Shown here: piece by piece, positions 32,467 through 56,800 of the stretch
Layout of the letters: each line of letters opens with the position of its first letter
How positions within the stretch are numbered: the stretch's first letter is position 1
IMG/VR virus record: IMGVR_UViG_2900261899_000001
Span: 41,248 to 105,247 of that record
DNA: 64,000 nt
DNA from: a virus
Lineage: Duplodnaviria; Caudoviricetes
Reading direction: 5' to 3' (one strand)
Translations under genes and position numbers: made by a program
The notes under the pieces: generated by a model
Databases searched by the model: none
Seen by the model: only the letters and a program-made list of their open reading frames with translations
Told to the model about the DNA's origin: nothing

Positions 32467-33063
32467 TCAGATCCGGCAGATGAGAGGGGCGAAGCCGGTC
32501 ATGGTGAACCGGTGGAAGTTGAGGTTCGGCGGCGCGAGCAGGTCGGCGTTGAGCGCCGTCACGGCGTCGATCTGAGCTTGCAGTTCGGCGACGCGTTGAT
32601 CGGTGTAGGCGGTGTCCGTCGGACCCTGCGGACCGGTGGTCAGCGCCGGCAGCACCACGCCCGAACCGGGCTGGCCGGCCACGAGGATCTGCGTGAAGGC
32701 CGCCTGCTGCCGAACCAGGGCGCTGTCGGTGGCCGGAAGAACCCGGACCGATGACCGCCCGAGCCATTCGTCGATCGTCGACCCCGTCACCGTCCGGTGA
32801 ACGTCGAACACGAGCGTCGTCGGGGTCGAAGCGAGCCAACCCCCGCGCGCCGCCTTCGGGACCGATAGGATGAGACTGTCCGTCAGCCCGTTCGTGTCCG
32901 CGATCCAGGTGATCGCACCGTTCGCACTATCGAGCGCCACGGCCTCGGGACCGCCGAAGCTGCCTGTCATCGTGGCCGTGAGCCGCGATCCCGTCAGGTT
33001 CAGGGGAACGACGAGTGGGACAATGACCCGCCAATCCGCGGTATCGAGGCATGTAGCGGGCAT
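32467..33063 (-). CDS. Fibre adaptor-like structural protein; 5' end matched by array 2
   Basis: DTADWR...PLNLTG pattern; position in tail-fibre cluster. Confidence 0.55.
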   Translation of the reverse strand: MPATCLDTADWRVIVPLVVPLNLTGSRLTATMTGSFGGPEAVALDSANGAITWIADTNGLTDSLILSVPKAARGGWLASTPTTLVFDVHRTVTGSTIDEWLGRSSVRVLPATDSALVRQQAAFTQILVAGQPGSGVVLPALTTGPQGPTDTAYTDQRVAELQAQIDAVTALNADLLAPPNLNFHRFTMTGFAPLICRI

Positions 33064-33082
33064 GGAAGACCTTCAGATCGAC

Positions 33083-33117: not shown

Positions 33118-33236
33118 TAGCGCGGCATGGCACGGCACCGTTCGGCGTGGCATGGCGAGGCACGGCGCGGCGAGGCTGGGTCGGGTCTGGCGTGGCGTGG
33201 TAGGGGTGAAGAGGTCGGCGTGAGCCGGCCTTTTCC
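33118..33236 (+). ncRNA. GGY-NN pentamer array RNA 2 (candidate gapped guide RNA)
   Basis: TAGCGC, then GGCAT GGCAC GGCAC CGTTC GGCGT GGCAT GGCGA GGCAC GGCGC GGCGA GGCTG GGTCG GGTCT GGCGT GGCGT GGTAG GGGTG, then hairpin AAGAGGTCGGC-GTGA-GCCGGCCTTTT. Confidence 0.8.
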
Positions 33237-39911: not shown

Positions 39912-41042
39912 TTATCCGATGACGATGGTGGGCGCCTTGATCGTGACCTGGGGGGAGGGGGCGATGTCCTCCTTGGCCCCGTTGACGGTCAGGCCGGTGA
40001 CGTTCTTCACGCCGGGGGAGGCGTCGTAGGCGACCTGGACCAGCCGGGTGTAGGTCAGGCCGGCGCCGAGCCCGAGGCCGTTCACGAACGTGCTGATCGC
40101 TTTCGAGACCGCGGCCTCGACGTCGGCGAGCAGGTACCCGAACGCGGCCTCGACATGCATCTCGATGCGGACGTTGCGCACCGTCGGCGGGAACACCGCG
40201 TAGATGATGCCCGACGCTCGCACGGCGTAGATCGCCGTGGTGACGTCGGCGAGGAGGTCGTCGCCCGGTGCGCCGGTGCCGTCGTCGACGACGACGTAGA
40301 TGAAGCCGGGGTTCGGGCTGCCGTCGCGACTCTCGTTCTCGACGATCTGATACTGGATCCCGAGTTCGAGGCTCGACACCGCGAAGGCGATGGCGGGGTT
40401 TGTGGCCTTGGCCAGGGAGGCGAAGAACAGCGTCTTGCGCACCCGCAGCGCCTCGTCGGTCTCGGCGTCGGAGCCGTTCGCGAAGGCGACGAGGTTGATC
40501 ACGGTGTCGATGCCGGGCGTGGCCGACGTGATCACCGTGATGGTGTTCTTGAGGACGTTGCTCGCCGCCGACGGGATGTCGGCCTTCACCGGTACTGCGG
40601 CCTGCGCGACGCCGATCGGCACCACGTAGCCGTTCCGGGCTAGACTGAAGGACGGCACCGTGCTGTCGGCGACGACCGTGAAGGTCTGCGAGCCATCCTC
40701 GGTCTGAACGGTGGCGCCGACCGGGATCAACGCTTCGACGGTCGCTGTGAACCGCGAAAACACGACCGAGCCGCTCGACGGCGCCGCGCCGAGACGCGTC
40801 AGGCCGAAATCGTTGACCCAGGAATCGAGATCGGCGCCGCTTGAGGTCGCGGCGCGGGTCAGGGTCAGGACGTAGACAATCAGGCTTTCGAGCCAGAGCG
40901 TCAGGTCCGCGGTGGCCTCGGCCACGGCGCGCAGGACGGCGCCGACCGAGAAGTCGACGAGCGCAGTCGCGCGGCCCTGTACGCCCGCCGCGAAGTTCTC
41001 CACCAGCGTGACGAAGTTGCGGATCGGAATCGCCGCCATCAC
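39912..41042 (-). CDS. Baseplate J-like protein
   Basis: G.DLD....FGLTR, NG.D.ETDEALR.R. Confidence 0.85.
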   Translation of the reverse strand: MMAAIPIRNFVTLVENFAAGVQGRATALVDFSVGAVLRAVAEATADLTLWLESLIVYVLTLTRAATSSGADLDSWVNDFGLTRLGAAPSSGSVVFSRFTATVEALIPVGATVQTEDGSQTFTVVADSTVPSFSLARNGYVVPIGVAQAAVPVKADIPSAASNVLKNTITVITSATPGIDTVINLVAFANGSDAETDEALRVRKTLFFASLAKATNPAIAFAVSSLELGIQYQIVENESRDGSPNPGFIYVVVDDGTGAPGDDLLADVTTAIYAVRASGIIYAVFPPTVRNVRIEMHVEAAFGYLLADVEAAVSKAISTFVNGLGLGAGLTYTRLVQVAYDASPGVKNVTGLTVNGAKEDIAPSPQVTIKAPTIVIG

Positions 41043-44078: not shown

Positions 44079-44273
44079 GGCCCCTCCCGAGGCGAGGGGT
44101 GGACGCAGAAACGGCAACGGCCCCGGCAGAAATCTGCGCGGGGCCGTTCGTAGGGTCCCTTATACGTCAAGGAACTCTTGGCGACTAGACGGAGGCGCAG
44201 CCATAACAGGCCACCGGCGCGCACATTGTAATAGCGCACGTGGTGCGCTATTTTAGGGATGGGAGGCGGGAAT

Positions 44274-44507
44274 GTGCCGACGTTAAAGCGCTTCGACCAA
44301 TTCAAGATTTGCGTCTTCGCTGACGATCATCCGCCGCCGCATTTCCATGTGATCGGGCGCGGGTTTAAGGCAACGATCTTGTTCGAGACGCTATCGCTTG
44401 ATGTCGGAGAATGCCCCCGGAAGGTGTTCGCGGAGGCGGTGACTTGGGCCGCCGTGAATCGCGAAGCCCTCGAAGAAGCTTGGAGGAACCTCAATGAGCG
44501 ATCGTGA
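44274..44507 (+). CDS. DUF4160 family protein
   Basis: MPT......I....DH.PPHFHV motif. Confidence 0.75.
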   Translation: MPTLKRFDQFKICVFADDHPPPHFHVIGRGFKATILFETLSLDVGECPRKVFAEAVTWAAVNREALEEAWRNLNERS

Positions 44508-45249
44508 CATGATCCGCGCCGGGGATCCTATTCCGTCGATCGGGGCCGTAGAGGTTGGCAACGGTCCTTACGACGTCCTTATCACCTGGGCCGATGGTCA
44601 TCGAGCCGGCCAGCAAATCCTCATCGACCTCGCCCCAGTGATCCTGACCTACAAGGTCTTCATTCCGTTGCGCGATGACCGCCGTCTTTTCGCAACCGTG
44701 CGCGTGGCCGAGTACGGCGAGGCCATCGAGTGGGGTGATAACGATGATCTGGCGGTCGCTGGGACGACGTTGGAGCGCCTTGCCAACGAAACGATGACCA
44801 ATGTCGATTTTGCAGCATTTCTGAAGCGCAACAGGCTCACACTAGATGCCGCAGCTGGGCAGCTCGGGATCGGTCGTCGTCAGGTGTCATACTACGCCAA
44901 AGGGCGGGAGATTCCGAGATATATCTCCCTCGCTTGTAAATATATCGAAGAGCGCAAAGCAGTAGATGATATAAATAATTATTTATCTGCCGGCAACACG
45001 CTTACTAAGATAGGATTGCACAACTGTGTTATAACTGACGGGAATAACAACTTCGATTGCGTGGCTCAAGCTACCGCGGCCTGGGACAGTAATGTCGTGA
45101 TTATCAAAGATGGGGGGGTGATAGAAGGCTATTATGTACCACCGGGTGAGAAACCTGAAGTGATAGTTAAAGGCGGTACGATTAAGGTAGGTTCGGGAAA
45201 TGTAACTGGCACAAGGCGTGCTAAATTAAATCTTGATAAAATTAGATAA
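44494..45249 (+). CDS. DUF2442-HTH antitoxin-like protein with AT-rich C-terminal extension
   Basis: F.PL.D..LF..V....G.AIEW, HTH LT...AA..LGI.RR.V.YY..G..IPR.I.LAC. Confidence 0.7.
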   Translation: MSDRDMIRAGDPIPSIGAVEVGNGPYDVLITWADGHRAGQQILIDLAPVILTYKVFIPLRDDRRLFATVRVAEYGEAIEWGDNDDLAVAGTTLERLANETMTNVDFAAFLKRNRLTLDAAAGQLGIGRRQVSYYAKGREIPRYISLACKYIEERKAVDDINNYLSAGNTLTKIGLHNCVITDGNNNFDCVAQATAAWDSNVVIIKDGGVIEGYYVPPGEKPEVIVKGGTIKVGSGNVTGTRRAKLNLDKIR

Positions 45250-45384
45250 TAGCCATGACCGACCGATCTCTCACCGCCGGGCACCGCGATGATATTCTTC
45301 TACGCACCTTAGACGGCGATTAGAAAAGACTGAGACATTACCCATTTGGGGTAGGATGATATACTAGATTAGGATACCTCAATC

Positions 45385-45690
45385 GTGCAGCTTACAATTG
45401 AAGTGGGCGAACTTAAGGTTCTGGCGAGCGGTGTACTGCTTGTCGATTCCGGTCGAGATGTAAAGTTTACAATTGAAGGAAATGTGTTTGAGCTTATGAT
45501 TGATAAAGATGGGCCGCCATATGAAAAGGTTGGCACAAATCATATTCGAGCCTACTTTAACACTGATAAAATGGTCAGTACTAGTTCAATGATCGGCGAT
45601 TATAATGGTAGGCCGTTAATGATCTCAATCCGTGTTCAGCAGCAAGGTACCCACATTAGGCAGGTTTTTTATACACTGGGTCATCATTAA
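45385..45690 (+). CDS. AT-rich hypothetical protein
   Basis: AGGA RBS; low GC. Confidence 0.55.
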   Translation: MQLTIEVGELKVLASGVLLVDSGRDVKFTIEGNVFELMIDKDGPPYEKVGTNHIRAYFNTDKMVSTSSMIGDYNGRPLMISIRVQQQGTHIRQVFYTLGHH

Positions 45691-45992
45691 TGGCTGTCCG
45701 TCTAGATCTTCCGCCTGACAAAACTTTGGCAACCCGTGTAATTGAAACGGAAGCCGAGCACAATACGCGAAAACTTGAGCGCGGTTTAATGGGTTTGATC
45801 TTTGGTCTCGCCACCGAAAAACCCGGAAATATCGCTGGCTTTGCGCTGATAGCTTTCTGCCTCATGTTTGCGGGGGTTTTGATTTGGGGCACCGATAGCA
45901 GCAGTCTATCAAAGAAAGACGTACTTTCGCTTATAGGTGGTTTTATCACCTTAACGCTCGGCTTCGTATTTGGTCGAACATCATCGTCTTAG
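45690..45992 (+). CDS. AT-rich two-TM membrane protein
   Basis: TAATG coupling; hydrophobic segments ending LGFVFG. Confidence 0.6.
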   Translation: MAVRLDLPPDKTLATRVIETEAEHNTRKLERGLMGLIFGLATEKPGNIAGFALIAFCLMFAGVLIWGTDSSSLSKKDVLSLIGGFITLTLGFVFGRTSSS

Positions 45993-46030
45993 ATGTGTGG
46001 TGCAACGAAGTCATGGACATGAAGAAAATG

Positions 46031-46124
46031 GAAAAGGCCGGCGCGAGCCAGCCCTTTCACCCTTGCCTCGCCTCAACAAACCCCGCCCCGCGGTACCCCG
46101 CCTTGGCCGGCCGTGCCTTAGCTA
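46031..46124 (-). ncRNA. GGY-NN pentamer array RNA 3 (candidate gapped guide RNA)
   Basis: Minus strand: TA GCTAA GGCAC GGCCG GCCAA GGCGG GGTAC CGCGG GGCGG GGTTT GTTGA GGCGA GGCAA GGGTG, then AAAGGGCTGGC-TCGC-GCCGGCCTTTTC. Confidence 0.8.
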
Positions 46125-46209: not shown

Positions 46210-48729
46210 TCAGGCTAGGACGCGACCGCCGTACCCTACCGGCGTTTTCAGCGTCGAATCGTCGAACGAACCGGTCCCGTTTCTCGTGTTCGCTTCGGCG
46301 ACCTGATGGTGCGTCACGGACCGACCGACCGTGCGGCCGTCGAGATGCACCGAGCTGGCAACCTGGATCGGGGCGGAACGCCCCTTGTAGATCAGGGAGC
46401 TCGATTTGCCGGGTGTCGCACCGCCACCGCCACCGCCGCCGGACGCGCCGCTTCCGAGATCGGCGCCGCCCGCCGGTTTGGCGCTTGCGCTTCCGATCGC
46501 GGCACGAGCAGCAGCCGCTACCCCGCCGATCCAACCCGCAAGCGCGTTCAGCGGGCCGCCAGCGCCTTGCGCCGCTTGCCCCGCCTTCTGAGCGCCAGAC
46601 GCAGCCTCATTGAGCGTGGAGACCGCACCAGCTGCCGTAGACGCGAGCCGCTGCTTGGCCGCTTCGATATTCTCCGTCGAAAGGCCCAGCCCTTCGGTGC
46701 CGATGTGACGCCGCGGGTTTTCACCACCGCCCGTCATGAATCCGTCGGGACCGCCGAACTCGAATGGCGTGGTACTTTTTCGGCGCTGCTCGGATAGAGT
46801 GTCGGCAAGTTTGCGAGCTGGCTCGCCTGCGATCTTATCCCACGGAAGCGTGACGGCGGCGATGGTGACAGCCGCACCGGCACCGACAGCCAGCGCTGGA
46901 AGGCTGAGCGTGCCGACGGCGGCAATAGCTAGTGCTGCAATACCCGCAGCTGCCGCACCACCGACAACAGCGGCCGTGGCGCCCATCGCCGTCTCGGCTG
47001 CGACTGGATGCTTCTCTAGTGTGTTTGCCACGCCTCCAAGCGCTGCGTTCAAGCGGTTAAGGTTGTCGACAAGGTTTGGGATTGCTGGCTCCGAGAGTGC
47101 GGTCGCCACTGCGCCGCCCTGCGATTTGGTGCCCTGCAGAGCCGCATAGGGGTCGTCGCGCCTATAGGCCGTGGTATCGCCGGAAGTCTTATCGTACCCG
47201 GCGAAGTCTTTTTCGATCTTACTTTTTTGCTGCGCCAATTCGAACAAAAATCCGTAGGCGTTCTTGTCGGTAAAAATTTTACCGAGGGTACGAAGCAGAT
47301 CGGTCTTGTCATCAGTATTGACGCCACCCGCTTTGAGCTTCGGAATGACGTTGTTGTAAAGCCATAGATCCGGGTCCTTGGCCCGGTCATAAGTTTTTCC
47401 GTCCAAGCCCACATCTGAAAATTGAGCACCCGGCTGGACTAACGTGTGTTTCTTGTTCCAAGTGACAGTTGGTTCTTGAAGAAGATTATATTTGTAGGCT
47501 TCAGTGAGCCCCGAGCCCAGCATACGCAAGCCACCGACACCCTTTGCCGCGAAGGTCGCGAACTGGGTACCGGCGCGCTGTCCAATTTCCTGCGAAAGCG
47601 CCGCGAAGGCGCCGTAGCGAAAGTGGTCGCTGGTCAGATTTAGCATCTGACCGCCGTTTTTCTGTGCGGTAAAGTAGTTCGATGGGTTGAGCTTGTCGCC
47701 GTACCAGAAGGCCAACCTCATCAGCGAGTTGGCGTGCTTCTTGACCCCCTCCGAGGTAATCTCGTTAGCTGTTTCAGCCGATTTCACGGCCGTGTAAATC
47801 TCGTTTACAGCGTTCTTAGCGCCGTGATTGCCGGCTTTGGCCTTCAGTGCCGAGAACTCTGGTAGCAATTCTGGCGCTTCGTGAATTGCTTTGTCGATGT
47901 CGCCAAGAATACCGCGGAGATCGTTGATGTGCTCGAAGATCTCGACAGGGGATAGATTAGGAAATTGTTGCGAACCCTTATATGAAAGTTCCTTGGCATG
48001 ATCGATCTGCGCTGGGCTAGCTCCGGTCTGCCGCATGCCGAGTTCAATGTGGCGCATATCGACGCCGGTCTCGATGACCTCAGAGAGCGTATGGACCCCG
48101 CCGGAGACCCCAATGACGCTTGCAAGTGCCGAGCCTTCATGGCCGACGAGACCATGCGTTCCGTGACTGCGCCGGCCATGCCCCCTGCCACGCGTGGCGC
48201 GCCCGGCACCGGTGCCAGCGCCCCCGGCCCCGCCGCCACCCCGGACGGGCGTTGGCAAGTTCACATTGCTCGCGGCTGACTGCAGGCGACGCATGGCGCC
48301 GGCCGCCGAATTGATCCGGCTCGTCCAACCCGAGATCGACTGCGTGACACCCCGCGCCGCTGAAGCGACGCCTTGGGTCTCGCGGCGCATGACGCGCATC
48401 TCGGCGATGGGCTTGCCGATGGCGCTGGCCCAGCGCTGCATTTCACGGTCCAGACCGTTGCCACCCTTCAAGCCAGACATGGCACGCGAGATCCGCGCGA
48501 CCTCGCGCTCGATCTTTTGGCCGGCGGAGGAGGACTTCGACAGTTCGCGGTTCAGTTGGCCGGCGGCGGACGCAGCGCGGTTCAGGGGCGAGACCCAGCG
48601 ACCGAACGATTTCTCAACGGATTTGGTTTTAGAGTCGACATCGCTCAGGGTCTTGAGCAGGCGCGTCATCTCGGGCACGAGATTGCCCGCGAGCGTCATG
48701 CTCGTCTGGATGCGATACACGTCGCTCAC
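46210..48729 (-). CDS. Tape measure protein
   Basis: 839 aa helical Ala/Gly-rich ORF between tail chaperone region and baseplate; C-terminal LDGR.V. Confidence 0.8.
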   Translation of the reverse strand: MSDVYRIQTSMTLAGNLVPEMTRLLKTLSDVDSKTKSVEKSFGRWVSPLNRAASAAGQLNRELSKSSSAGQKIEREVARISRAMSGLKGGNGLDREMQRWASAIGKPIAEMRVMRRETQGVASAARGVTQSISGWTSRINSAAGAMRRLQSAASNVNLPTPVRGGGGAGGAGTGAGRATRGRGHGRRSHGTHGLVGHEGSALASVIGVSGGVHTLSEVIETGVDMRHIELGMRQTGASPAQIDHAKELSYKGSQQFPNLSPVEIFEHINDLRGILGDIDKAIHEAPELLPEFSALKAKAGNHGAKNAVNEIYTAVKSAETANEITSEGVKKHANSLMRLAFWYGDKLNPSNYFTAQKNGGQMLNLTSDHFRYGAFAALSQEIGQRAGTQFATFAAKGVGGLRMLGSGLTEAYKYNLLQEPTVTWNKKHTLVQPGAQFSDVGLDGKTYDRAKDPDLWLYNNVIPKLKAGGVNTDDKTDLLRTLGKIFTDKNAYGFLFELAQQKSKIEKDFAGYDKTSGDTTAYRRDDPYAALQGTKSQGGAVATALSEPAIPNLVDNLNRLNAALGGVANTLEKHPVAAETAMGATAAVVGGAAAAGIAALAIAAVGTLSLPALAVGAGAAVTIAAVTLPWDKIAGEPARKLADTLSEQRRKSTTPFEFGGPDGFMTGGGENPRRHIGTEGLGLSTENIEAAKQRLASTAAGAVSTLNEAASGAQKAGQAAQGAGGPLNALAGWIGGVAAAARAAIGSASAKPAGGADLGSGASGGGGGGGATPGKSSSLIYKGRSAPIQVASSVHLDGRTVGRSVTHHQVAEANTRNGTGSFDDSTLKTPVGYGGRVLA

Positions 48730-49274: not shown

Positions 49275-49781
49275 TTATCGAGGCGGAAACAACAAAAGCG
49301 TCAAAAAGGCCGTTTTGCTATCTTCGCTAGCGGCCTCAAGCCCGGTCAACGCCGACTTTGCAATAAGAATAAAGTGCTCGACTTCTGACACAGTTAAGAC
49401 GTGTGATGGGTCATAATCGGCTAGCATACGCTGTTCATATAGGTCAATAAATGCGTCGGCGTACCCGGTTATTTGCGCATCAAATCCGCCTGCCGGCCAA
49501 TACCTGCTGTATTTCTGGCTTGGATTCTGCTTTTTTATTTCAACACAAAGAGACCTCATTTTGCCGTGATCTATTGATCTGTAAGCCAAGCTATAAAGGC
49601 TGCTGCCTCTTTTATCCTCTCCGACGGACTGGTCGGCGGCCGCCTTCAGACCGGCATGGAACACGGCATAATAGGTAGCCGATACTGCTCTACATCTGTC
49701 AGCCAAGCGCGGTCGTTCCTGCCCAGGCAGCACAGCGAGCAGGCGTTCGGCCTGCTCAACCAAATGTGCGGGTTCGATCAC
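49275..49781 (-). CDS. HEPN-domain protein
   Basis: RAVSATYYAVFHA, H, L...R..ADYD. Confidence 0.7.
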   Translation of the reverse strand: MIEPAHLVEQAERLLAVLPGQERPRLADRCRAVSATYYAVFHAGLKAAADQSVGEDKRGSSLYSLAYRSIDHGKMRSLCVEIKKQNPSQKYSRYWPAGGFDAQITGYADAFIDLYEQRMLADYDPSHVLTVSEVEHFILIAKSALTGLEAASEDSKTAFLTLLLFPPR

Positions 49782-50070
49782 GCTGAAGCTCTATCCAATC
49801 TTCCATTCGGGCAAAGCTAACTAGTGGCACACGGTCCTCACCGGCCCTGTGTAACTCGCTTTTCATCCTACTGATGATATTGAGCAGTTGTGTTCCTCCA
49901 AAGTCGTCGGCGTTTGCCTCTGGGTACACAATAGTTATTTTGAGCGCATCGGACCCATCGGATGTTTGAGCGCCCGCTATTGCTGTCGATATTGGGACAA
50001 ACTTACCCAAAACATCCCGAGATGTTTCCTTCGCCAGTCTTGATATTTCACCTAAATCTAGCCGCATCAC
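49756..50070 (-). CDS. Small partner of HEPN gene (possible degenerate nucleotidyltransferase fold)
   Basis: Overlaps HEPN start; DG.DAL.I.IV...GE.R.P...F. Confidence 0.5.
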   Translation of the reverse strand: MMRLDLGEISRLAKETSRDVLGKFVPISTAIAGAQTSDGSDALKITIVYPEANADDFGGTQLLNIISRMKSELHRAGEDRVPLVSFARMEDWIELQRDRTRTFG

Positions 50071-50078
50071 CGCATGCC

Positions 50079-50333
50079 TCAGCCCTGTATTCCCAGGACG
50101 GGCGCCTTCAGCCGGACGCCCGGCCCCCCGCCGTTCTCTGCGATGAACTCGAGCCCAGCCTCCGCAAGCGCTTTCTCAACCTTTGCCAGATTGTCGGTGA
50201 TAGCCTTGGGAACCCCCTCGCTCTCCTCCATCCGTTTGATTGTTGCGGGGGACACCCCAGAGGTATCCGCTAAATCCCTTACGGACCACCGAAGGTAGCC
50301 GCGTGCCATCCGAATCTGGGCCCCGGTGACCAT
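50079..50333 (-). CDS. XRE-family HTH regulator
   Basis: TGAQIRMAR..L.WS..DLA..SGVS..TIKR.E...LAEAG.EF..ENGGGPGVRL. Confidence 0.85.
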   Translation of the reverse strand: MVTGAQIRMARGYLRWSVRDLADTSGVSPATIKRMEESEGVPKAITDNLAKVEKALAEAGLEFIAENGGGPGVRLKAPVLGIQG

Positions 50334-50364
50334 AAAAGCTAAATGACCCATATTTGGTCTAGCG

Positions 50365-50413
50365 TGAGCTAAATTGGTTGACACGGGCGCCTCCATGAGC
50401 CAATTTAGCTCAT
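50365..50413 (+). promoter_or_regulatory. Promoter with inverted operator repeats
   Basis: TTGACA(50378)-N17-CAATTT; 13-bp inverted repeat TGAGCTAAATTGG (50365-77) / CCAATTTAGCTCA (50400-12). Confidence 0.65.
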
Positions 50414-50459
50414 GGCCGCTGCAAATGAAAGCGACCTTACCACTAAGAGGATCGCGCCG

Positions 50460-50804
50460 ATGCCCGTGAATGCAAAGATCCCCACCCCCCTGCGCGCAAA
50501 CATCATGGCCAGGGCCTGGGAGTTATTCCGCAAGCGCTACAATTACCCCCGCACCCCGTTCCGTTCGATCGGCCGCGCATGTTTCGCGTCGGCTCTAAAA
50601 GCCGCGTGGGCGGAAGCCCGTGAGACTGTTCGTCTTGTCGGTTTCGGGGCCGATGCCCTGAGGCGCTCTATCGAGGCACTTTCCTCTCCGGCTCACGCGG
50701 TAGGCCTTTCCTCAAGCTACGCGCTTGGCCCTCAGGCCGCGATGGAGCGGTATCAACAAAAGCTCGCTTTAACGGCCGCCCTGAACTTCGCGATTGCGGC
50801 TTGA
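50460..50804 (+). CDS. Hypothetical protein
   Basis: GAGGA RBS; IMARAW...R, FA.ALK.AWAEAR motif. Confidence 0.65.
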   Translation: MPVNAKIPTPLRANIMARAWELFRKRYNYPRTPFRSIGRACFASALKAAWAEARETVRLVGFGADALRRSIEALSSPAHAVGLSSSYALGPQAAMERYQQKLALTAALNFAIAA

Positions 50805-50815
50805 GGGAGGGAGCT

Positions 50816-51313
50816 ATGCAAAATCGGAGAGCAATCCTCACGGCCCTTATTGCGGTACCGCTGACTGGGCCGTTGTGTGCGGGTCAGCCTCATCTTGACG
50901 CGGCCCTGCTCGACCTCGGCAGGCGCTTCGATGCCGCCGTGGCGGCGCACAAAGCCCACGTCCGGGCCTACTTCGCGGCTGACGAGGCCCATACCCAGGC
51001 GCTCCAGGCCGCTAAGTCGGCTGGGCGGTTCAAGGGGCTCGACGCTGAAGCCTACGCAGCGCTCCACTCGCAGCTAATTGAGCCGTTCAACGCGGCGCTA
51101 GAGAGGGACGACGAACTCCACGACGCCTGCGGCAAGCTGGGCGAGCAAATCATCGCGATCCAACCCAAGACTCTGGATGGAATCGCTGTTCTTGCCCGTG
51201 TCTGCCAGTTCGAATCGCGGCAGGCCTGGGAAGCGCCGAAGAGCCGCGAGTACGATGAGGACGTCCTCGTTGCCCTCGTCGACGGCATCTTGGCCGTGGC
51301 CGCTACGGCGTGA
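50816..51313 (+). CDS. Hypothetical protein
   Basis: NRR..L, DAALL.LG, I......TLDG....AR. Confidence 0.6.
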   Translation: MQNRRAILTALIAVPLTGPLCAGQPHLDAALLDLGRRFDAAVAAHKAHVRAYFAADEAHTQALQAAKSAGRFKGLDAEAYAALHSQLIEPFNAALERDDELHDACGKLGEQIIAIQPKTLDGIAVLARVCQFESRQAWEAPKSREYDEDVLVALVDGILAVAATA

Positions 51314-51753
51314 CCTACGAGGAATACCTTGCATCCCCACGATGGGCCGAGCTGCGCCGGCTGAGGCTAGCCCTCGACGGATTCCGCTGCCGGGGCTGCG
51401 ATACCGCCGACAATCTTGAGGTTCACCACCGGCGCTACGGCACCCCGCTGGGCAGCGAGACGGTCGACGACCTGACGACGCTCTGTGGCGGCCCCGAGGG
51501 CTGCCACCACGCGATCACCACCATCATCCGCCGCCGCCTGTACGCGACCCGTCAGTATGACGTGACCGCAGTCGCTCGGCTGGCCCCCGGCAATCTGGAG
51601 AAGAACGATGTCCCAGGACTACGAGCGTTTAAGATTTCGGCTCACCGGCGTGTCGCCCCTGGTCATGCACAACGGTCGCTTGGCGAACCCGCTGGACTCG
51701 TTTGCGAAGGCGCTGAAGGCGGTCTCGGGAAAGCGCGGCAAGACGGACGCTGA
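51310..51753 (+). CDS. HNH endonuclease
   Basis: Y.EYL.SPRW...R...L..DGFRCRGC....LEVHH..Y...G.E...DL.TLC....CH. Confidence 0.8.
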   Translation: MTYEEYLASPRWAELRRLRLALDGFRCRGCDTADNLEVHHRRYGTPLGSETVDDLTTLCGGPEGCHHAITTIIRRRLYATRQYDVTAVARLAPGNLEKNDVPGLRAFKISAHRRVAPGHAQRSLGEPAGLVCEGAEGGLGKARQDGR

Positions 51754-52183
51754 CTTCGAGGAGATGGCCCGTATCGAGTTCCTGGGCGGCCTCTATGTCG
51801 GCGACGATGGTCCTTGCATCCCCGGCGAATTGATCGAAGCGGTCCTGATCGCGGCGGCCAAAAAGAACAAGCGCGGCATGCAGGCCAAGGCCGGCATCCT
51901 TTCGGACGGCAACCACCGGGTCGAGTACCACGGCCCCAGAGGGGCAGAGGAGCTGTGGGCGGACGACCGCTTCCGCCTCGTTGCCGGCGTTCGTGTCGGA
52001 CAGGCCCGTGTGATGCGGACCCGCCCGATCTTTCGGGAGTGGTCGTCAGAAATCTTCGTTGACTTCCTGCCGGGTCAATTGAACCGGGCGGACGTCGCGG
52101 GAATGGTTAGAACCGCAGGCACCATCGTCGGCATCGGCGATTGGAGGCCGCGGTTTGGAAGGTTCACAGTGGAGACGCTGTGA
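51608..52183 (+). CDS. Stand-alone RAMP/Cas7-like protein
   Basis: N-terminal strand RFRLTGVSPLVMHN, central PCIPGELIEAVLIAAA, C-terminal Gly-rich loop AGTIVGIGDWRPRFGRFTV; GGAG RBS; directly followed by pentamer array. Confidence 0.7.
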   Translation: MSQDYERLRFRLTGVSPLVMHNGRLANPLDSFAKALKAVSGKRGKTDADFEEMARIEFLGGLYVGDDGPCIPGELIEAVLIAAAKKNKRGMQAKAGILSDGNHRVEYHGPRGAEELWADDRFRLVAGVRVGQARVMRTRPIFREWSSEIFVDFLPGQLNRADVAGMVRTAGTIVGIGDWRPRFGRFTVETL

Positions 52184-52273
52184 TAGCCCGGTAGGGCAAG
52201 GCGGGTCGCGGCATGCCTCGGCAAGGCGTGGTTCGGTAGGGGTGAAAAGGGCCGGCTTTCGCCGGCCCTTTTC
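52184..52273 (+). ncRNA. GGY-NN pentamer array RNA 1 (candidate gapped guide RNA)
   Basis: TAGCCC, then GGTAG GGCAA GGCGG GTCGC GGCAT GCCTC GGCAA GGCGT GGTTC GGTAG GGGTG, then hairpin AAAAGGGCCGGC-TTTC-GCCGGCCCTTTT. Confidence 0.8.
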
Positions 52274-52277
52274 CACA

Positions 52278-52715
52278 TCAGCGGTTTGTCGCTCCGCTCA
52301 GGTGCCGGAACACGGCTTCGCCGAGGATGCGGTGAACCTCGCCCTCCTTGCGGACAGCAGCTGTCTTCAGGACCGGGCGAGGCGGGATCCCGCGGGAGGT
52401 TCCCAACTCCTGCCACGTCGCCTTCGGATCGTCGGACCCCACGGCGGCTTCGTGGTCGCTCACAACGGTGCGCGCGTAGGCATCGCGCATGGCGCCGGTT
52501 TCGAGCAGTGGGCTATCGCCCGTGGCTTTTCGAGCCACGGTCTCGCTCTGCAAGGCTGGCCACCCGGGTTGGTAGGTCCCGGGCAGCCGCTTTGCCTCAT
52601 CGAGAACGACCTCCGAAGCTTGTTCGAGCCCGCGGCGTTGAGCGGCCGGCAGGGTAGCGACGCGGCCGCGCATAAAGCCGACGAACGCACCGATCGACGA
52701 GAACGTGCGCGCCAT
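52278..52715 (-). CDS. HK97 gp10-like tail completion/morphogenesis protein
   Basis: W..L...T..RK, PLLETG.MR, A..QELGT..IPPRP.L. Confidence 0.75.
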   Translation of the reverse strand: MARTFSSIGAFVGFMRGRVATLPAAQRRGLEQASEVVLDEAKRLPGTYQPGWPALQSETVARKATGDSPLLETGAMRDAYARTVVSDHEAAVGSDDPKATWQELGTSRGIPPRPVLKTAAVRKEGEVHRILGEAVFRHLSGATNR

Positions 52716-53414: not shown

Positions 53415-53645
53415 ATGCGGCGAATGATGTACGGCGCGCTGGCGGCGATCGCAGCGCTATGGTTGGTGGCGCCGGCGCCCGCGCAAGCGACGCCCGGCAT
53501 GCTGAATGCCCAAGGGTGCCATGGGCATCCCCGGCACTGTCACAGCCGCTCAGACTGGAGCACCAACAGCAGGGGACGACACTATGTGGCGGGGCACTTC
53601 GGCGGCGGTCATCGGCATCGTCGCCGCGGTCATCGGCGCCGGTAG
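53415..53645 (+). CDS. Small secreted His/Arg-rich protein
   Basis: Signal peptide, G.LNAQGCH....HCH, basic tail. Confidence 0.55.
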   Translation: MRRMMYGALAAIAALWLVAPAPAQATPGMLNAQGCHGHPRHCHSRSDWSTNSRGRHYVAGHFGGGHRHRRRGHRRR

Positions 53646-54279
53646 CGCCCGCGCCGAACCGATCGTCGGTCGCGCGTCGGTGATCGACGGCGACACGATC
53701 GAAATCCGGGGGCAGCGATTCCGGCTACAGGGCGTCGACACGCCCGAGAGCGCACAACTCTGCCAGGATGCCGGCGGGAAGGACTACCGCTGCGGGCAGA
53801 AGGCGTCGCTCGCCCTGGCCGACAAGATCGGCGCCGGCAACGTCTCCTGCGAACCCGTTACCACCGACCGCTACGGCCGTACTGTCGCGATCTGCTCGCT
53901 GAACGCGCTCGACCTGAACGGATGGCTCGTCGAGCAGGGGCTCGGCATGGCCTACCGGAAGTACTCGACAGCCTACGTCGGGCAGGAGGAGGCCGCGAAG
54001 GCCGCTCGGCGTGGGATCTGGCAGGGTGCGTTCACGCCGCCGTGGGACTGGCGGAAGGGCGAACGGATCGGGCCGGAGGGGCAAACTGTGCCCCCGCCCG
54101 TTCACACGGCCGGGGCCTGCGATATCAAGGGCAACATCAGTCGAGGCGGCGATCGGATCTACCACCTGCCCGGCTCGCGCAGCTACGAGAAGACGGTGAT
54201 CACAGAGTCATCGGGCGAGCGGATGTTCTGTTCCGAGGACGAAGCGAAGGCGGCCGGTTGGCGACCGCCTCGCGGTTGA
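53584..54279 (+). CDS. Thermonuclease (SNase) with C-terminal IKGNI domain
   Basis: VIDGDTI, RLQGVDTPE, DRYGR, CDIKGNI....IYH.PG...Y...FCSE.EA..AGWR. Confidence 0.85.
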   Translation: MWRGTSAAVIGIVAAVIGAGSARAEPIVGRASVIDGDTIEIRGQRFRLQGVDTPESAQLCQDAGGKDYRCGQKASLALADKIGAGNVSCEPVTTDRYGRTVAICSLNALDLNGWLVEQGLGMAYRKYSTAYVGQEEAAKAARRGIWQGAFTPPWDWRKGERIGPEGQTVPPPVHTAGACDIKGNISRGGDRIYHLPGSRSYEKTVITESSGERMFCSEDEAKAAGWRPPRG

Positions 54280-54363: not shown

Positions 54364-54711
54364 GTGACCATCGAGTACGAAACCGACACCGTTCTGCCGC
54401 CGATGCACCCCGGCGAGGTGCTCCGCGAGGAGTTTCTGCTCCCGCTGCGCCTCAGTCCCTACAAGGTGGCCAAGGCCTGCGGGGTCCCGCGGACCCGGAT
54501 CGAGCGAATCGCGCGCGAGGAGATGGGCATCACGGCCGACAGCGCGCTGCGGCTCGGCCGCTACTTCAACACCAGTGCCGATCTGTGGCTCAACCTGCAG
54601 CGCAAGTTCGAGGTCGAGATGGCAAAGCGTGCCATTGGGGACGAGTTGGCCGCGATCGAGCCTCTGAAGCGCGAAGCCGACGGGTCCGATCAGCCGATCA
54701 CTGCACCTTGA
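54364..54711 (+). CDS. higA: HigA-family antitoxin
   Basis: PMHPGEVLREEFL.PL, ITAD.ALRL.RYF.TS...WLNLQ. Confidence 0.85.
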   Translation: MTIEYETDTVLPPMHPGEVLREEFLLPLRLSPYKVAKACGVPRTRIERIAREEMGITADSALRLGRYFNTSADLWLNLQRKFEVEMAKRAIGDELAAIEPLKREADGSDQPITAP

Positions 54712-55231: not shown

Positions 55232-56800
55232 TCAGGCCGCGAGCGACGTCGTGATGACGGCGAAGTTGAAGCCGGTCGGCTGGTTCTGCGTGCGGGTGAT
55301 CTGCACGGTCTGACCGCCCTCGATGTCGATGAGGAAGTATTCGACCACCGCGAGGTAGACGACCTTCACCGCGGCCTTCAGGTAGCCGGCGGCGATGCGG
55401 TTCACGGGGTTGTTCGAAAGATCGCAGATGACCTGGAAGTCATCGATCATCTTCTCGCCCTGCAGCGAGCCGAGGAAGGCGTTCAGCGTCGCCGAAGCGC
55501 GGGCGCGGGTCGAGTCGTCGGCCTGGCGGCTCTGCAGTTCACCGACGTATTTCCCCATGCCGGCGTCGAGCGTCTTGGCGATGTAGTTCGTCAGCCGGGT
55601 GTAAGCGACCTGGTGGATGCCGACGTTCGAGGAGGTGTTGCGACCGAAGCGGTTGCCGAACACCTTGCCGGCCGGGATCGGGTTGCAGATCAGCGAGAGG
55701 CCGTTCGAGCCGAGCAACTGGAGCTCGGCGTCGGAATAGGTCGCGCCGGTCGCGGACCGCTGCGTTCCGATGATGCCCTGCATCGGCTTGTTCAGCGTGG
55801 TGAACTGGGGCGCGAGGTTGACGAGCTTTCCGAGTTCGAAAGCCTGGGGCGAGACGTAGCGGTTGAGCCCGTTGGCCTCGTCGTAGAACAGGATCCAGTC
55901 GCCGACGAGGCGCTCGAAGGCGTAAGAGTCGATGCCACCGTCGTTGCGGGCCGAGACCGCCGTGGTGAGCGACTCGCCCGGCGTGCCGACACCGATCATC
56001 AACACACCCTCGGACAGGCCGAAGGCGATCTGCGTGGCATTCGTGGTGTCGTCGGTGCAGTCGCAGAGCGCCGCCACCGAGCAGCCGACGCTGCGCAGGG
56101 CGAACATGCCGGAGCGCGGGGTCGTGTCGGTGCCGACGAGGGTCTGTGCCGTGACACCCGAGGCGCCGTCGGTGCCGCCGGCCAGCGTGACCTTGGTGTT
56201 CTGGGTCGGGGCCGTGGTGCCGACGCCGGCCGCTGCGACGACGATCTGCGAGGCGCCGCGCGAGATGCTCTGGCCGTTGTTGATGGCCGAGGCGAGGGCC
56301 GGCCAGAAGGCCGCACCGGTGGCGGGCAGGTTGTCGAAGGCCTCCGAACCCAGGAAGGGCAGGGCGACGATCGCGCGGAGCGTGCCCGGGGCCGAGCCGC
56401 TGGTGACCAGGAAGCTGATCTGGTTCCCGCCCGTGCCGGTGTAGCGCGCCGTCAGGGTCAGGCAGTTCGTCTGCACGGTGGCGGTGGCGGCGAGGTCGGT
56501 GCCGTCGGTGACGCGGACACAGGCATAGGCGCCGGCGGCACCCTGCTTGGAGCCGACCGACACGAAGGTGCCCATGTCGTACTTGCGGTTCTGGGCCGGC
56601 CCGAAGTTCGGCTTGAAGCCGGACGGATCCGAGACCAGCACCGCGCGGCCGACCGGACCCCAGATCGCGGTACCGATGAGCCCGCCGATGTTCGTCGGGA
56701 CGCCGTTCAGCAGGAGTAGCTGCGGTTCGACTATGGAAATGTACAATCCGGGCGTCACGAGCGCGGTCGTGTTGAGCTGTCCGGCCGAGAAAATCGCCAC
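55232..56800 (-). CDS. Tail sheath protein
   Basis: PGLYI, G.A.WGP, LAGGTDG, C-terminal F.V.CD.SNN. Confidence 0.9.
   Translation of the reverse strand: MAIFSAGQLNTTALVTPGLYISIVEPQLLLLNGVPTNIGGLIGTAIWGPVGRAVLVSDPSGFKPNFGPAQNRKYDMGTFVSVGSKQGAAGAYACVRVTDGTDLAATATVQTNCLTLTARYTGTGGNQISFLVTSGSAPGTLRAIVALPFLGSEAFDNLPATGAAFWPALASAINNGQSISRGASQIVVAAAGVGTTAPTQNTKVTLAGGTDGASGVTAQTLVGTDTTPRSGMFALRSVGCSVAALCDCTDDTTNATQIAFGLSEGVLMIGVGTPGESLTTAVSARNDGGIDSYAFERLVGDWILFYDEANGLNRYVSPQAFELGKLVNLAPQFTTLNKPMQGIIGTQRSATGATYSDAELQLLGSNGLSLICNPIPAGKVFGNRFGRNTSSNVGIHQVAYTRLTNYIAKTLDAGMGKYVGELQSRQADDSTRARASATLNAFLGSLQGEKMIDDFQVICDLSNNPVNRIAAGYLKAAVKVVYLAVVEYFLIDIEGGQTVQITRTQNQPTGFNFAVITTSLAA

What the first reader, a model, noticed from the sequence alone, without database searches (positions are those of the whole stretch)
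50079..52273. Candidate RNA-guided system: HNH + stand-alone RAMP/Cas7-like protein + GGY-NN pentamer RNA
Seen: an accessory operon ends with an HNH nuclease and a 191-aa protein with RAMP-type hallmarks (N-terminal TGVSPL strand, IPG helix motif, terminal GIGDWRP.FGRF Gly-rich loop). Right after its stop codon lie about 11 pentamers with a near-constant GGY and a variable NN, closed by a hairpin. There is no cas1/cas2 or CRISPR array. Inference: the protein polymerises on the RNA, one subunit per pentamer, binding GGY and exposing NN for target pairing. From memory this resembles recently reported phage 'VIPR'-type systems; I cannot verify that here, so novelty needs checking.
Basis: partly seen in the sequence, partly recalled or inferred. 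Interest (0 to 1): 0.96.

Follow-up and report, generated by a model that had tools for sequence, protein, structure and literature searches.

The report
Prophage VIPR RNA-guided system with HNH
This is a genuine member of the recently described phage VIPR family: a small Cas7-like protein that lines up on guide RNAs made of GGY-NN pentamers, here paired with an HNH nuclease gene and apparently aimed at the tail genes of rival prophages. The kind of system is already in print.

Summary

- **Protein:** the 191-aa ORF (51608-52183) matches the solved SUSP1 Vipr protein (PDB 36pp) at E 1.2e-31 over its whole length. It keeps 10 of 14 residues that the cryo-EM paper names.
- **Guide RNA:** right after the stop codon lie 11 YNNGG pentamers, 9 canonical, and then a 13-bp hairpin. 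100 shuffles never gave more than 6 units.
- **More guides:** two further arrays sit at 33121-33205(+) and 46061-46120(-). They share the same tail, so the prophage carries three guide genes.
- **Relatives:** they show the same HNH-vipr-array module.
- **Targets:** under the published 1-nt-skip rule, guide A3 matches the 3' end of tape-measure genes in two other genomes at 21/24, in frame. The prophage's own copy, about 140 nt from the guide gene, matches 19/24. A1 points to the start of a tail-region gene family at 21-27/34. A2 has no target found.
- **Not shown:** HNH action, RNA expression and RNP formation are inferred.

Verdict: a new member of a known kind, of moderate interest.

The parts
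51608..52183 (+). vipr: 191-aa Vipr (minimal RAMP/Cas7-like) protein
   Evidence: phmmer against PDB finds 36pp_D 'SUSP1 Vipr protein' at E 1.2e-31, query 8-190 against chain 4-189. BLASTP to a Felixounavirus Vipr gives 37% identity, E 4e-43. phrog_4652 at E 1e-52, with no Pfam or NCBIfam family. H21, K37, R43, E74, K85, G90, R139, D178, W179 and R180 align with SUSP1 H17, K33, R39, E71, K82, G87, R138, D177, W178 and R179.
51310..51753 (+). HNH accessory gene (vap-like), 147 aa; its last 146 nt overlap vipr out of frame
   Evidence: HNH PHROGs at E 8e-7. Weak likeness to the IscB HNH domain: PDB 9k2z E 0.01, and NF040563 E 1.1e-4, which is far below its cut-off. C27, C30, H39, H40, C59, C65 and H66 are invariant in 24 homologues. 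An upstream HNH hit was found in 55 of 80 IMG/VR loci and 7 of 9 genome loci. The overlap with vipr is at least 60 nt in 60 of 61 loci.
52187..52273 (+). vrRNA A2: 11 YNNGG units (52187-52241) plus tail hairpin (about 52244-52273)
   Evidence: 9 of 11 units are canonical. The fold gives a 13-bp stem with a 4-nt loop, z -3.3. No target at 80% or better was found.
46029..46120 (-). vrRNA A3: 12 units (46061-46120) plus tail hairpin (46031-46058); a stand-alone guide gene just downstream of the probable tape-measure gene
   Evidence: It has the same tail as A2. The guide matches tape-measure gene 3' ends in G065 and G090 at 21/24, in frame.
33121..33236 (+). vrRNA A1: 17 units (33121-33205, 16 canonical) plus tail hairpin (33208-33235); a stand-alone guide gene between two minus-strand tail-region genes
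   Evidence: It has the same tail. In all 13 homologue loci the best guide match lies at the 5' end of the 32467-33063 gene family.
46256..46290 (-). Own near-cognate site of A3, in the 3' end of the 839-aa probable tape-measure gene (46210-48729)
   Evidence: 19 of 24 NN bases match, in frame with the skip base at the wobble position. None of 200 unit-order shuffles reached this score, p 0.005, in the 10-kb neighbourhood. The gene weakly hits tape-measure PHROGs at E 1.2e-4.
33017..33066 (-). Own near-cognate site of A1, spanning the start codon of gene 32467-33063(-)
   Evidence: 23 of 34 NN bases match, 54 nt from the A1 gene. Local shuffle p is 0.01.
50079..50396 (-). Divergent HTH (Cro/CI-like) gene with an operator-like inverted repeat at 50365-50377/50400-50412
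   Evidence: HTH_31 at E 9.9e-6, 26.2 bits, just under the cut-off of 27. A 13-nt perfect inverted repeat lies around a TTGACA. Its link to the VIPR module is inferred from position only. It is not conserved in the related loci examined.
50412..51313 (+). Two upstream ORFs of the same strand (130 aa and 170 aa), function unknown
   Evidence: The 130-aa ORF has sub-threshold likeness to phrog_8305, Phage_Gp111 and the AcrIIA3 N-terminus. The 170-aa ORF has no family. Neither is conserved next to vipr in relatives.

Best explanation
The locus is a VIPR (Viral Interference Programmable Repeat) system carried as cargo inside the tail-gene module of a myovirus-like prophage.

Shown by homology: the 191-aa protein is a Vipr, the minimal RAMP that in the solved SUSP1 complex binds one GGY-NN repeat per protomer. 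It hides GGY and presents NN.

Shown in sequence: three guide genes (vrRNAs A1, A2, A3) of 17, 11 and 12 pentamers each end in the same hairpin tail. One lies right behind vipr. Two are stand-alone mini-genes 5.5 and 18.5 kb away.

Inferred: Vipr filaments loaded with these RNAs recognise double-stranded DNA by the published rule, in which two paired bases alternate with one skipped base. The skipped base coincides with the codon wobble position.

Supported for A3, suggestive for A1, open for A2: the targets are tail genes of related, competing prophages. The resident prophage's own alleles lie next to the guide genes and fall below the published 80% match threshold, so they are spared.

Inferred only: the conserved, overlapping HNH gene supplies DNA cleavage at the bound site. 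That would make this a target-destroying rather than a merely silencing variant.
For: Protein:
- E 1.2e-31 to PDB 36pp 'SUSP1 Vipr protein' across the full length.
- 10 of 14 named contact residues are identical.
- The G-loop residues G177, D178 and W179 are nearly invariant (90% or more) and R180 is invariant across the 39 aligned sequences.

RNA:
- Arrays of 16/17, 9/11 and 9/12 YNNGG units, against at most 6 in 100 shuffles.
- A shared tail with 30 invariant columns of 56.
- Stable hairpins and terminator-like calls for A1 and A3.

Conservation of the module:
- All 9 full-length genome loci carry arrays downstream of vipr.
- In 70 of 80 IMG/VR loci, at least 6 of the 24 pentamers after the stop are GG-phased, against 8.7% of 1460 background windows. 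In 62 of 80 at least 8 are, against 0.75%.
- HNH lies upstream in 7 of 9 and in 55 of 80 loci.

Targets:
- A3 gave 2 hits at up to 3 mismatches in 146 genus genomes, with 0 control hits. Both are in frame at the homologous 3' end of tape-measure genes, 21/24.
- The own site scores 19/24, or 79%.
- A1's best match in each of 13 homologue loci lies at the same gene 5' end, 21-27 of 34.
- There is no self-hit at 80% or better in the genome, as the preprint reports for its systems.

Context:
- Sheath, portal, baseplate and tail-fibre PHROGs flank the locus.
- No Cas1 was found in the genome.
Against: - No expression or RNP data exist. No sequencing run was listed, and the structure and complex predictors were unavailable.
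- A2, the guide next to vipr, has no target. The genus search gave 2 hits at 3 mismatches against 1 control hit, and the two hits are not homologous to each other. IMG/VR seeds extended only to chance levels.
- A1 reaches at most 27/34 (79%) in any sequence examined.
- A3's evidence rests on two genomes.
- The simple scan found no sigma-70-type promoter upstream of any of the three guide genes.
- No nuclease activity has been shown for any VIPR, either in the text read or here. The experimentally characterised VIPRs act by silencing.
- 18 of 53 HNH-bearing loci have a stop within the first 40 overlap codons, so the overlap length varies.
Confidence: 0.8

Rival explanations
1. It is a silencing-only VIPR. 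Vipr-vrRNA filaments merely block transcription, as shown for the SUSP1 and P. fulva systems. The HNH gene would then be a neighbouring homing-type endonuclease, or would have another role such as RNA processing or mobility of the module.
For: All experimental data in the preprints are for repression without cleavage. Free-standing HNH genes are common in phages (recalled). A1's footprint spans a start codon, a good place for a roadblock.
Against: HNH-vipr adjacency holds across 27-65% HNH identity in 55 of 80 and 7 of 9 loci. The out-of-frame overlap is conserved, at least 60 nt in 60 of 61 loci, and alternative-frame stops are depleted 4-fold. Catalytic and zinc residues are invariant. The preprint itself lists nuclease-type vap genes for some types. 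A3 binds the last 80 nt of a 2.5-kb gene, a poor place to silence that gene.
Confidence: 0.12
2. The two remote guides act on the prophage itself. They would tune or hold down its own tail genes through the near-cognate sites at 33017-33066 and 46256-46290. Alternatively, they are decoy or anti-VIPR RNAs that soak up a rival's Vipr, as described for satellite solo vrRNAs.
For: Each remote guide gene lies 54-135 nt from its best own-genome match. Local near-cognate sites are enriched across relatives: 16 of 131 arrays at p<=0.05 against 6.6 expected. Solo vrRNAs with decoy function are in print.
Against: The own sites score 79% and 68%, below the 80% used in print. Foreign alleles score higher for both guides: 21/24 for A3, and up to 27/34 against 23/34 own for A1. 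All three tails are alike, so they should load the resident Vipr. The tolerance of Vipr for 5 mismatches is unknown.
Confidence: 0.07
3. The pentamer runs are chance products of G+C-rich DNA next to ordinary terminators, and the ORF is an unrelated phage protein.
For: The window is 66% G+C. A loose tail pattern hits coding DNA in 26 other genomes.
Against: Shuffles give at most 6 units. The family match to a solved Vipr is E 1e-31. Arrays recur behind vipr in relatives from 38-73% G+C.
Confidence: 0.01

Closest known systems
VIPR type II of Escherichia phage SUSP1 and the P. fulva prophage (bioRxiv 10.64898/2026.04.26.720920 and .720927)
   Same: It has a homologous Vipr protein with the same RNA- and DNA-contact residues. 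The vrRNAs are YNNGG repeats followed by an invariant 3' tail. It is phage-borne, has no cas genes, shows no self-hit at 80% or better, and its skip base falls on codon wobble positions.
   Different: Identity is only 37%. In a SUSP1-like phage (HY02) the accessory gene follows vipr and is not an HNH. Here an HNH precedes and overlaps vipr. The tail is a plain 12-13-bp hairpin, not the pseudoknot reported for the SUSP1 clade. The guides are scattered over 19 kb rather than clustered beside vipr. A1 has 17 units, against the 9-16 stated in print.
Nuclease-bearing VIPR types (III-V) of the same preprint
   Same: The preprint says types III-V carry predicted nucleases or helicases, and the legend of its Fig. 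S21 names an HNH domain among Vap proteins. It also says some types encode a single vrRNA. That fits HNH plus vipr plus one adjacent vrRNA.
   Different: The preprint describes types III and V as enriched in defence islands and serving host immunity. This module sits in a prophage tail operon, has 383 relatives on IMG/VR viral contigs, and aims at prophage tail genes. The type could not be assigned because the type tables are in supplements that were closed.
Solo/orphan vrRNAs (bioRxiv 10.64898/2026.10.15.759431)
   Same: These are stand-alone guide genes away from vipr. Their self-match scores are lower than their non-self scores, and their targeting is wobble-aligned.
   Different: Those were described in satellites and in vipr-less SUSP1-like phages, as decoys or as guides against vipr and vrRNAs. 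Here the solo guides sit in a vipr-positive prophage, share its tail, and point at structural genes whose own allele is the immediate neighbour.
Class 1 CRISPR-Cas backbone (Cas7 filament on crRNA)
   Same: It has the RAMP fold family, a G-loop and thumb, and periodic base flipping, according to the preprints.
   Different: There is no Cas1, no CRISPR array, no other cas genes and no contiguous spacer. The period is 5 nt with 2 read bases.

Membership tests
VIPR system | Vipr protein: a small stand-alone RAMP homologue with G-loop and thumb | tested here: met
   By sequence: E 1.2e-31 to the solved SUSP1 Vipr, full length. The GDWR G-loop and the thumb R139 are conserved.
VIPR system | vrRNA gene: tandem YNNGG repeats (the preprint's search needs at least 4 units; typical 9-16) beside vipr | tested here: met
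   11 units, 9 canonical, start 4 nt after the stop. Further arrays have 17 and 12 units. Shuffles give at most 6.
VIPR system | Invariant structured 3' tail after the repeat tract | tested here: met
   The three tails share 30 invariant columns of 56 and a 12-13-bp hairpin. This is a hairpin, not the SUSP1-clade pseudoknot.
VIPR system | Minimal locus without CRISPR array or cas1/cas2, usually with one accessory (vap) gene | tested here: met
   No Cas1 (PF01867) was found in the genome, while the control genomes gave hits. No CRISPR-like repeat is in the window. The HNH gene is adjacent and this adjacency is conserved. Cas2 was not searched.
VIPR system | Targets obey the 1-nt-skip code at 80% or more NN match, with no self-target | tested here: inconclusive
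   A3 meets it: 21/24 in 2 genomes, control 0. A1 peaks at 27/34, or 79%. A2 has no target found. The best self-hits are 79%, 68% and 82% of NN bases. The 82% is A2's 18/22 on contig C12, within the range of shuffled guides, 17-19.
VIPR system | vrRNA is expressed and co-purifies with Vipr as a filament RNP | not testable with these tools
VIPR type III (nuclease vap, single vrRNA) | Position in the Vipr phylogeny and the vap cluster defined in the preprint's data S4 / Fig. 5A | not testable with these tools
Only the text and legends were seen. The architecture is compatible, but the type is not assigned.
CRISPR-Cas class 1 | CRISPR repeat-spacer array plus adaptation genes and a multi-Cas effector | tested here: not met
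   None is present in the window, and no Cas1 is in the genome.

The most novel reading that the evidence does not exclude
In this HNH-bearing Vipr clade, a guide gene and the resident phage's own diverged, sub-threshold allele of the targeted gene are kept side by side as a 'weapon plus immunity' cassette. Recombination then cannot separate a guide from the allele that survives it. With the overlapping HNH, the system would cut rather than silence kin phages at conserved tail genes, tape-measure genes in particular. That would make it a kin-directed superinfection-exclusion device and a plausible route by which new guides arise from neighbouring genes.
Probability: 0.25. Interest if true: 0.6.

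Novelty: new member of a known kind. Interest (0 to 1): 0.35.

Why it matters
As a discovery of a new kind of RNA-guided system it does not matter, because VIPR has been in print since April 2026.

As a case study it adds three testable points.

1. An HNH-coupled VIPR sits in a prophage and is common on viral contigs. The preprint ties nuclease-bearing types mainly to host defence islands.
2. One Vipr appears to serve three guide genes scattered through the tail module. Two of them lie next to the prophage's own, mismatched copy of the gene they target in relatives. Such local near-matches are enriched across 131 arrays.
3. The HNH gene consistently overlaps the start of vipr by about 100-160 nt, which hints at coupled expression.

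If the HNH cuts Vipr-bound DNA, this clade would be a compact, PAM-free, RNA-guided nuclease of about 340 aa in two proteins.

Tried and rejected

**Other closed or empty tools.**
- The look-up of sequencing runs: none was listed, and no RNA holder was listed.

**Target hunts that led nowhere.**
- A1, full pattern with up to 3 mismatches: 0 of 146 genus genomes.
- A1, 9-unit seeds in IMG/VR: 1 and 0 stretches. The one hit extends to only 20/34.
- A1, 11-unit core: 0 in metagenome contigs and 0 in IMG/VR.
- A1, 9-unit core in metagenomes: 18 stretches, best 26/34.
- A2 in the genus: 2 hits against 1 control hit, and the two are not homologous.
- A2, two 8-unit seeds in IMG/VR: 17 and 15 stretches. 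The best extension is 20/22, on a 43% G+C contig, and was judged chance.

**Other negative or weak results.**
- Same-tail guide genes elsewhere in the genus: the loose tail pattern hit 26 other genomes, against 8 control hits. None has more than 4 YNNGG units in the 12 upstream.
- No covariance model was built, because the three-sequence tail alignment misplaces one gap.
- Rfam: 0 families at gathering score. No tRNA genes.
- The search for related loci with the single protein in genome contigs gave only 1 locus. An alignment query would have been the better use of that single scan.
- The frame+1 control for the HNH overlap is confounded by G+C-rich third codon positions. It was replaced by the within-gene stop-density comparison.

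**Not assigned.** The VIPR type (I-VII). The preprints' supplements, which hold the type tables, target tables and data S3/S4, were closed and may already list this locus or its clade.
Full report
**What is there.** The window is 66% G+C. Its minus strand carries a myovirus-like structural module:
- portal, 62874-63995;
- head protease/major head, 61417-62871;
- sheath, 55235-56800;
- a baseplate wedge subunit, 39915-41042;
- tail-fibre-like genes;
- a tail-completion gene, 52278-52715.

Between the sheath side and an 839-aa probable tape-measure gene lies a plus-strand cargo block. The tape-measure gene (46210-48729) is identified only weakly, by phrog_28 at E 1.2e-4. The cargo block holds two small ORFs, an HNH ORF (51310-51753), a 191-aa ORF (51608-52183) and a pentamer array with a hairpin. 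A divergent HTH gene (50079-50396) precedes the block.

**Checking the observation.** After the TGA stop at 52181-52183 come 11 pentamers, at 52187-52241. Nine fit YNNGG and all 11 begin with a pyrimidine. A 13-bp stem with a 4-nt loop follows.

A scan of both strands found two more arrays: 33121-33205(+) with 16 of 17 units, and 46061-46120(-) with 9 of 12. All three are followed by the same tail, GTGAA then a G+C-rich hairpin then UUUUCC. The tails share 30 invariant columns of 56.

In 100 dinucleotide-preserving shuffles of the window, the best run had 3 to 6 matching units, and 6 occurred only once. Across the whole 4.64-Mb assembly, five runs reach 6 or more matching units. Three are in this window and carry the tail. 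One is a 7-of-10 run on contig C24 with no tail. One is a 7-of-7 run on contig C2.

**What the protein is.** Pfam and NCBIfam give nothing, and PHROGs gives phrog_4652, 'unknown function', at E 1e-52. Against PDB sequences the only hit is 36pp chain D, 'SUSP1 Vipr protein'. It scores E 1.2e-31 and 113 bits, with query 8-190 aligned to chain 4-189.

BLASTP against the Vipr of a SUSP1-like Felixounavirus (HY02) gives 37% identity and E 4e-43. I mapped the residues that the cryo-EM preprint names through that alignment:
- H17, K33, R39, E71, K82, G87, R138, D177, W178 and R179 are identical here (H21, K37, R43, E74, K85, G90, R139, D178, W179, R180).
- M72 is L.
- C173 and T175 are V and I.
- K88 falls in a gap.

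That is 10 of 14 identical. In an alignment of 39 sequences, R139, G175, R180, P181, G184 and R185 are invariant, and H21, D178 and W179 are nearly so.

The family is large. 1112 proteins score E<=0.001 among 1385 candidates, and every name shown among the 120 listed is 'hypothetical' or 'uncharacterized'. 136 phage records hold a relative, and 383 IMG/VR stretches encode one.

It is sparse in cellular genomes. It occurs in 7 of 146 species genomes of the genus and 3 of 401 sampled in the order, both counts including this genome.

**What is known.** Four preprints cover the system.
- bioRxiv 10.64898/2026.04.26.720920. I read the whole Results, the Discussion, three Methods sections and legend passages. 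It defines VIPR as a Vipr protein plus vrRNAs of 9-16 YNNGG repeats with an invariant tail. DNA recognition is by NN pairs with a 1-nt skip. There are seven types, and types III-V carry predicted nucleases or helicases.
- bioRxiv .720927. I read the outline and the first of two parts of the Results. It shows one protomer per repeat.
- bioRxiv 10.64898/2026.10.15.759431. I read the abstract, section 8, the Discussion and one Methods section. It describes solo vrRNAs and lower self-match than non-self match.
- bioRxiv 10.64898/2026.10.21.760802, passages only. It recovers VIPR arrays, including non-canonical units, from entropy periodicity.

**Do relatives share the anatomy?** Nine full-length genome loci were examined, and all carry arrays downstream of vipr.
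- In seven (L001, L003, L005-L009) an array starts within about 35 nt of the vipr stop, and an HNH lies upstream.
- In two (L004, L010) no HNH hit was found. An ORF of about 170-180 aa follows vipr, and the arrays lie about 480 nt downstream.
- A tenth locus (L011) is a 66-aa fragment without an array.

Of the 80 best IMG/VR loci, 54 have an array of at least 5 units by the strict YNNGG rule. By a uniform looser rule, the test is GG in one phase in at least 6 of the 24 pentamers after the stop. 70 of 80 pass, against 8.7% of 1460 background windows. At 8 or more, 62 of 80 pass, against 0.75%. Ten of the 80 do not pass.

Some passing loci use ANNGG units (L028, L034, L036, L038, L054, L062). 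An HNH hit lies just upstream in 55 of 80.

The module moves between otherwise unrelated prophages. Against the 83%- and 80%-identical relatives in the genus, only HNH-vipr aligns at the DNA level, at 73-76%. One of them (G023) also has a remote guide gene 8.6 kb from vipr.

**The HNH.** C27, C30, H39, H40, C59, C65 and H66 are invariant in 24 sequences. That pattern fits a zinc-stabilised His-Me finger, an assignment I make from general knowledge. The only outside likeness is weak, to the HNH domain of IscB.

The ORF runs into vipr out of frame. It does so by at least 60 nt in 60 of 61 loci, with a median of 149 nt. A first control, the other alternative frame, is biased by G+C-rich third positions.

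The fairer test compares stop density in the HNH frame within vipr itself:

| Region of vipr | Stops per codon |
|---|---|
| Codons 1-40 | 0.0104 |
| Codons 61-190 | 0.0421 |

35 of 53 loci have no stop in the first 40 codons, against 15.8 expected. The overlap therefore looks selected, but its meaning is unknown.

**Targets.** I applied the published rule of NN, skip one, on both strands. The own genome shows nothing beyond what shuffled guides give.

| Guide | Best own-genome score | Range in unit-order shuffles |
|---|---|---|
| A1 | 23/34 | 22-25 |
| A2 | 18/22 | 17-19 |
| A3 | 19/24 | 17-19 |

*A3.* In 146 genus genomes, A3 gave two hits at up to 3 mismatches and none for the reversed control. 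Both lie in frame, with the skip base at the wobble position, at the homologous last codons of tape-measure genes. Both score 21/24.

Only four other genomes in the genus have a homologue of that gene end. At the homologous site they score 21, 21 and 15, and the fourth has no such site. The prophage's own site, 46256-46290, scores 19/24 and lies about 135 nt from the A3 gene. In the targeted genomes the tape-measure gene is not followed by a guide gene. In G090 the next tail gene follows directly, with no inserted guide or low-G+C cargo.

*A1.* Its best own match, 23/34, spans the start codon of the neighbouring gene 32467-33063(-), 54 nt away. In all 13 loci holding a homologue of that gene, from 12 of 146 genomes, the best A1 match is at that same 5' end. 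Scores run from 21 to 27 of 34, and none reaches 80%.

*A2.* No target was found.

**A pattern beyond this window.** For 131 distinct arrays from the window and related loci, I compared the best 1-nt-skip match within the same locus with 200 shuffles of unit order. All pentamer arrays and tails were masked.
- 16 arrays reach p<=0.05, against 6.6 expected (binomial p 9e-4).
- 11 arrays reach p<=0.01, against 1.3 expected.

Several of these matches lie in frame in structural or lysis genes:
- tape-measure genes in L001 and L014 (PHROG E 1.6e-23 and 1.1e-62);
- a head-tail joining gene in L070;
- an endolysin in L024.

The loci are related and short, so this is a lead, not a proof.

**Mechanism, with status.**
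- Shown by sequence homology: the protein is a Vipr with the RNA-contact residues.
- Shown in sequence: three guide genes share one tail.
- Inferred from the solved homologue: filament assembly, GGY sequestration and NN read-out.
- Supported for one guide, suggestive for a second: the targets are tail genes of kin prophages, and the prophage's own alleles fall under the 80% line.
- Inferred only: HNH cleavage.
- No evidence found: promoters of the solo guides. The consensus scan found none. By eye, A1 and A3 share CTTGC(T/C), an 18-nt spacer, TA...T and then CTAGC, which I offer as a lead.

**Verdict.** The locus is a new member of a known kind. Interest is moderate. It rests on four things: the HNH-type module in a prophage, the scattered same-tail guides placed beside their own diverged target alleles, the gene overlap, and a second, 42%-identical HNH-vipr-array module on another contig of the same genome.

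Noticed in passing
own genome, contig C2:132517-133455 (outside the window; held as L005): A second HNH-vipr-array module in the same genome. Its Vipr is 42% identical, and 7 of 7 YNNGG units start about 15 nt after the stop. The tail is different, and the module sits next to an integrase-like ORF. Its guide (NN series TA GA CA TT TA AT) is nearly the same in the systems of two other genomes (L008, L009).
   Followed up: partly
window 51608-51753, and 60 of 61 related loci: The HNH ORF runs about 100-160 nt into vipr in another frame. HNH-frame stops are 4-fold depleted in vipr codons 1-40 compared with codons 61-190. This may reflect translational coupling. No fused form was sought with the 'longer' search.
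   Followed up: partly
L028, L034, L036, L038, L054, L062 (IMG/VR): In these loci the arrays behind vipr use ANNGG units, up to 23 of 24 in L062, instead of YNNGG. Non-canonical units are mentioned in two preprints.
   Followed up: no
L039-L041, L045, L049-L052 (IMG/VR): A conserved block of about 45 nt (ACCACTCTCGTGATAGGCACGG...GGAGTGGGA) follows the first array and precedes further pentamers. It could be a processing element such as the ribozyme-interspersed arrays named in the preprint. It was not tested against Rfam.
   Followed up: no
window 49275-50070 (-): Two overlapping small ORFs beside the VIPR block. The 168-aa one has a sub-threshold HEPN match (E 0.0035). This may be a HEPN/MNT-type toxin-antitoxin or defence pair.
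   Followed up: no
window 44259-45992 (+): A low-G+C (45-58%) cargo island lies between the tape-measure gene plus A3 and the next tail gene. Its first ORF has a sub-threshold DhiT-toxin match (E 5.3e-8, 33 bits against a cut-off of 100). In G090 the next tail gene follows the tape-measure gene directly, with no such insertion.
   Followed up: partly
window 50365-50412: A perfect 13-nt inverted repeat, TGAGCTAAATTGG / CCAATTTAGCTCA, brackets a TTGACA between the divergent HTH gene and the plus-strand operon. It is operator-like.
   Followed up: no
window 50412-50804 (+): The 130-aa ORF has sub-threshold likeness to the N-terminus of AcrIIA3, Phage_Gp111 and phrog_8305. All are below the curated cut-offs.
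   Followed up: no
window 53506-54279 (+): A plus-strand ORF with a staphylococcal-nuclease (SNase) domain (E 1.4e-14, above the cut-off) and an N-terminal signal-like segment lies inside the tail module. An HTH ORF follows at 54364-54711.
   Followed up: no
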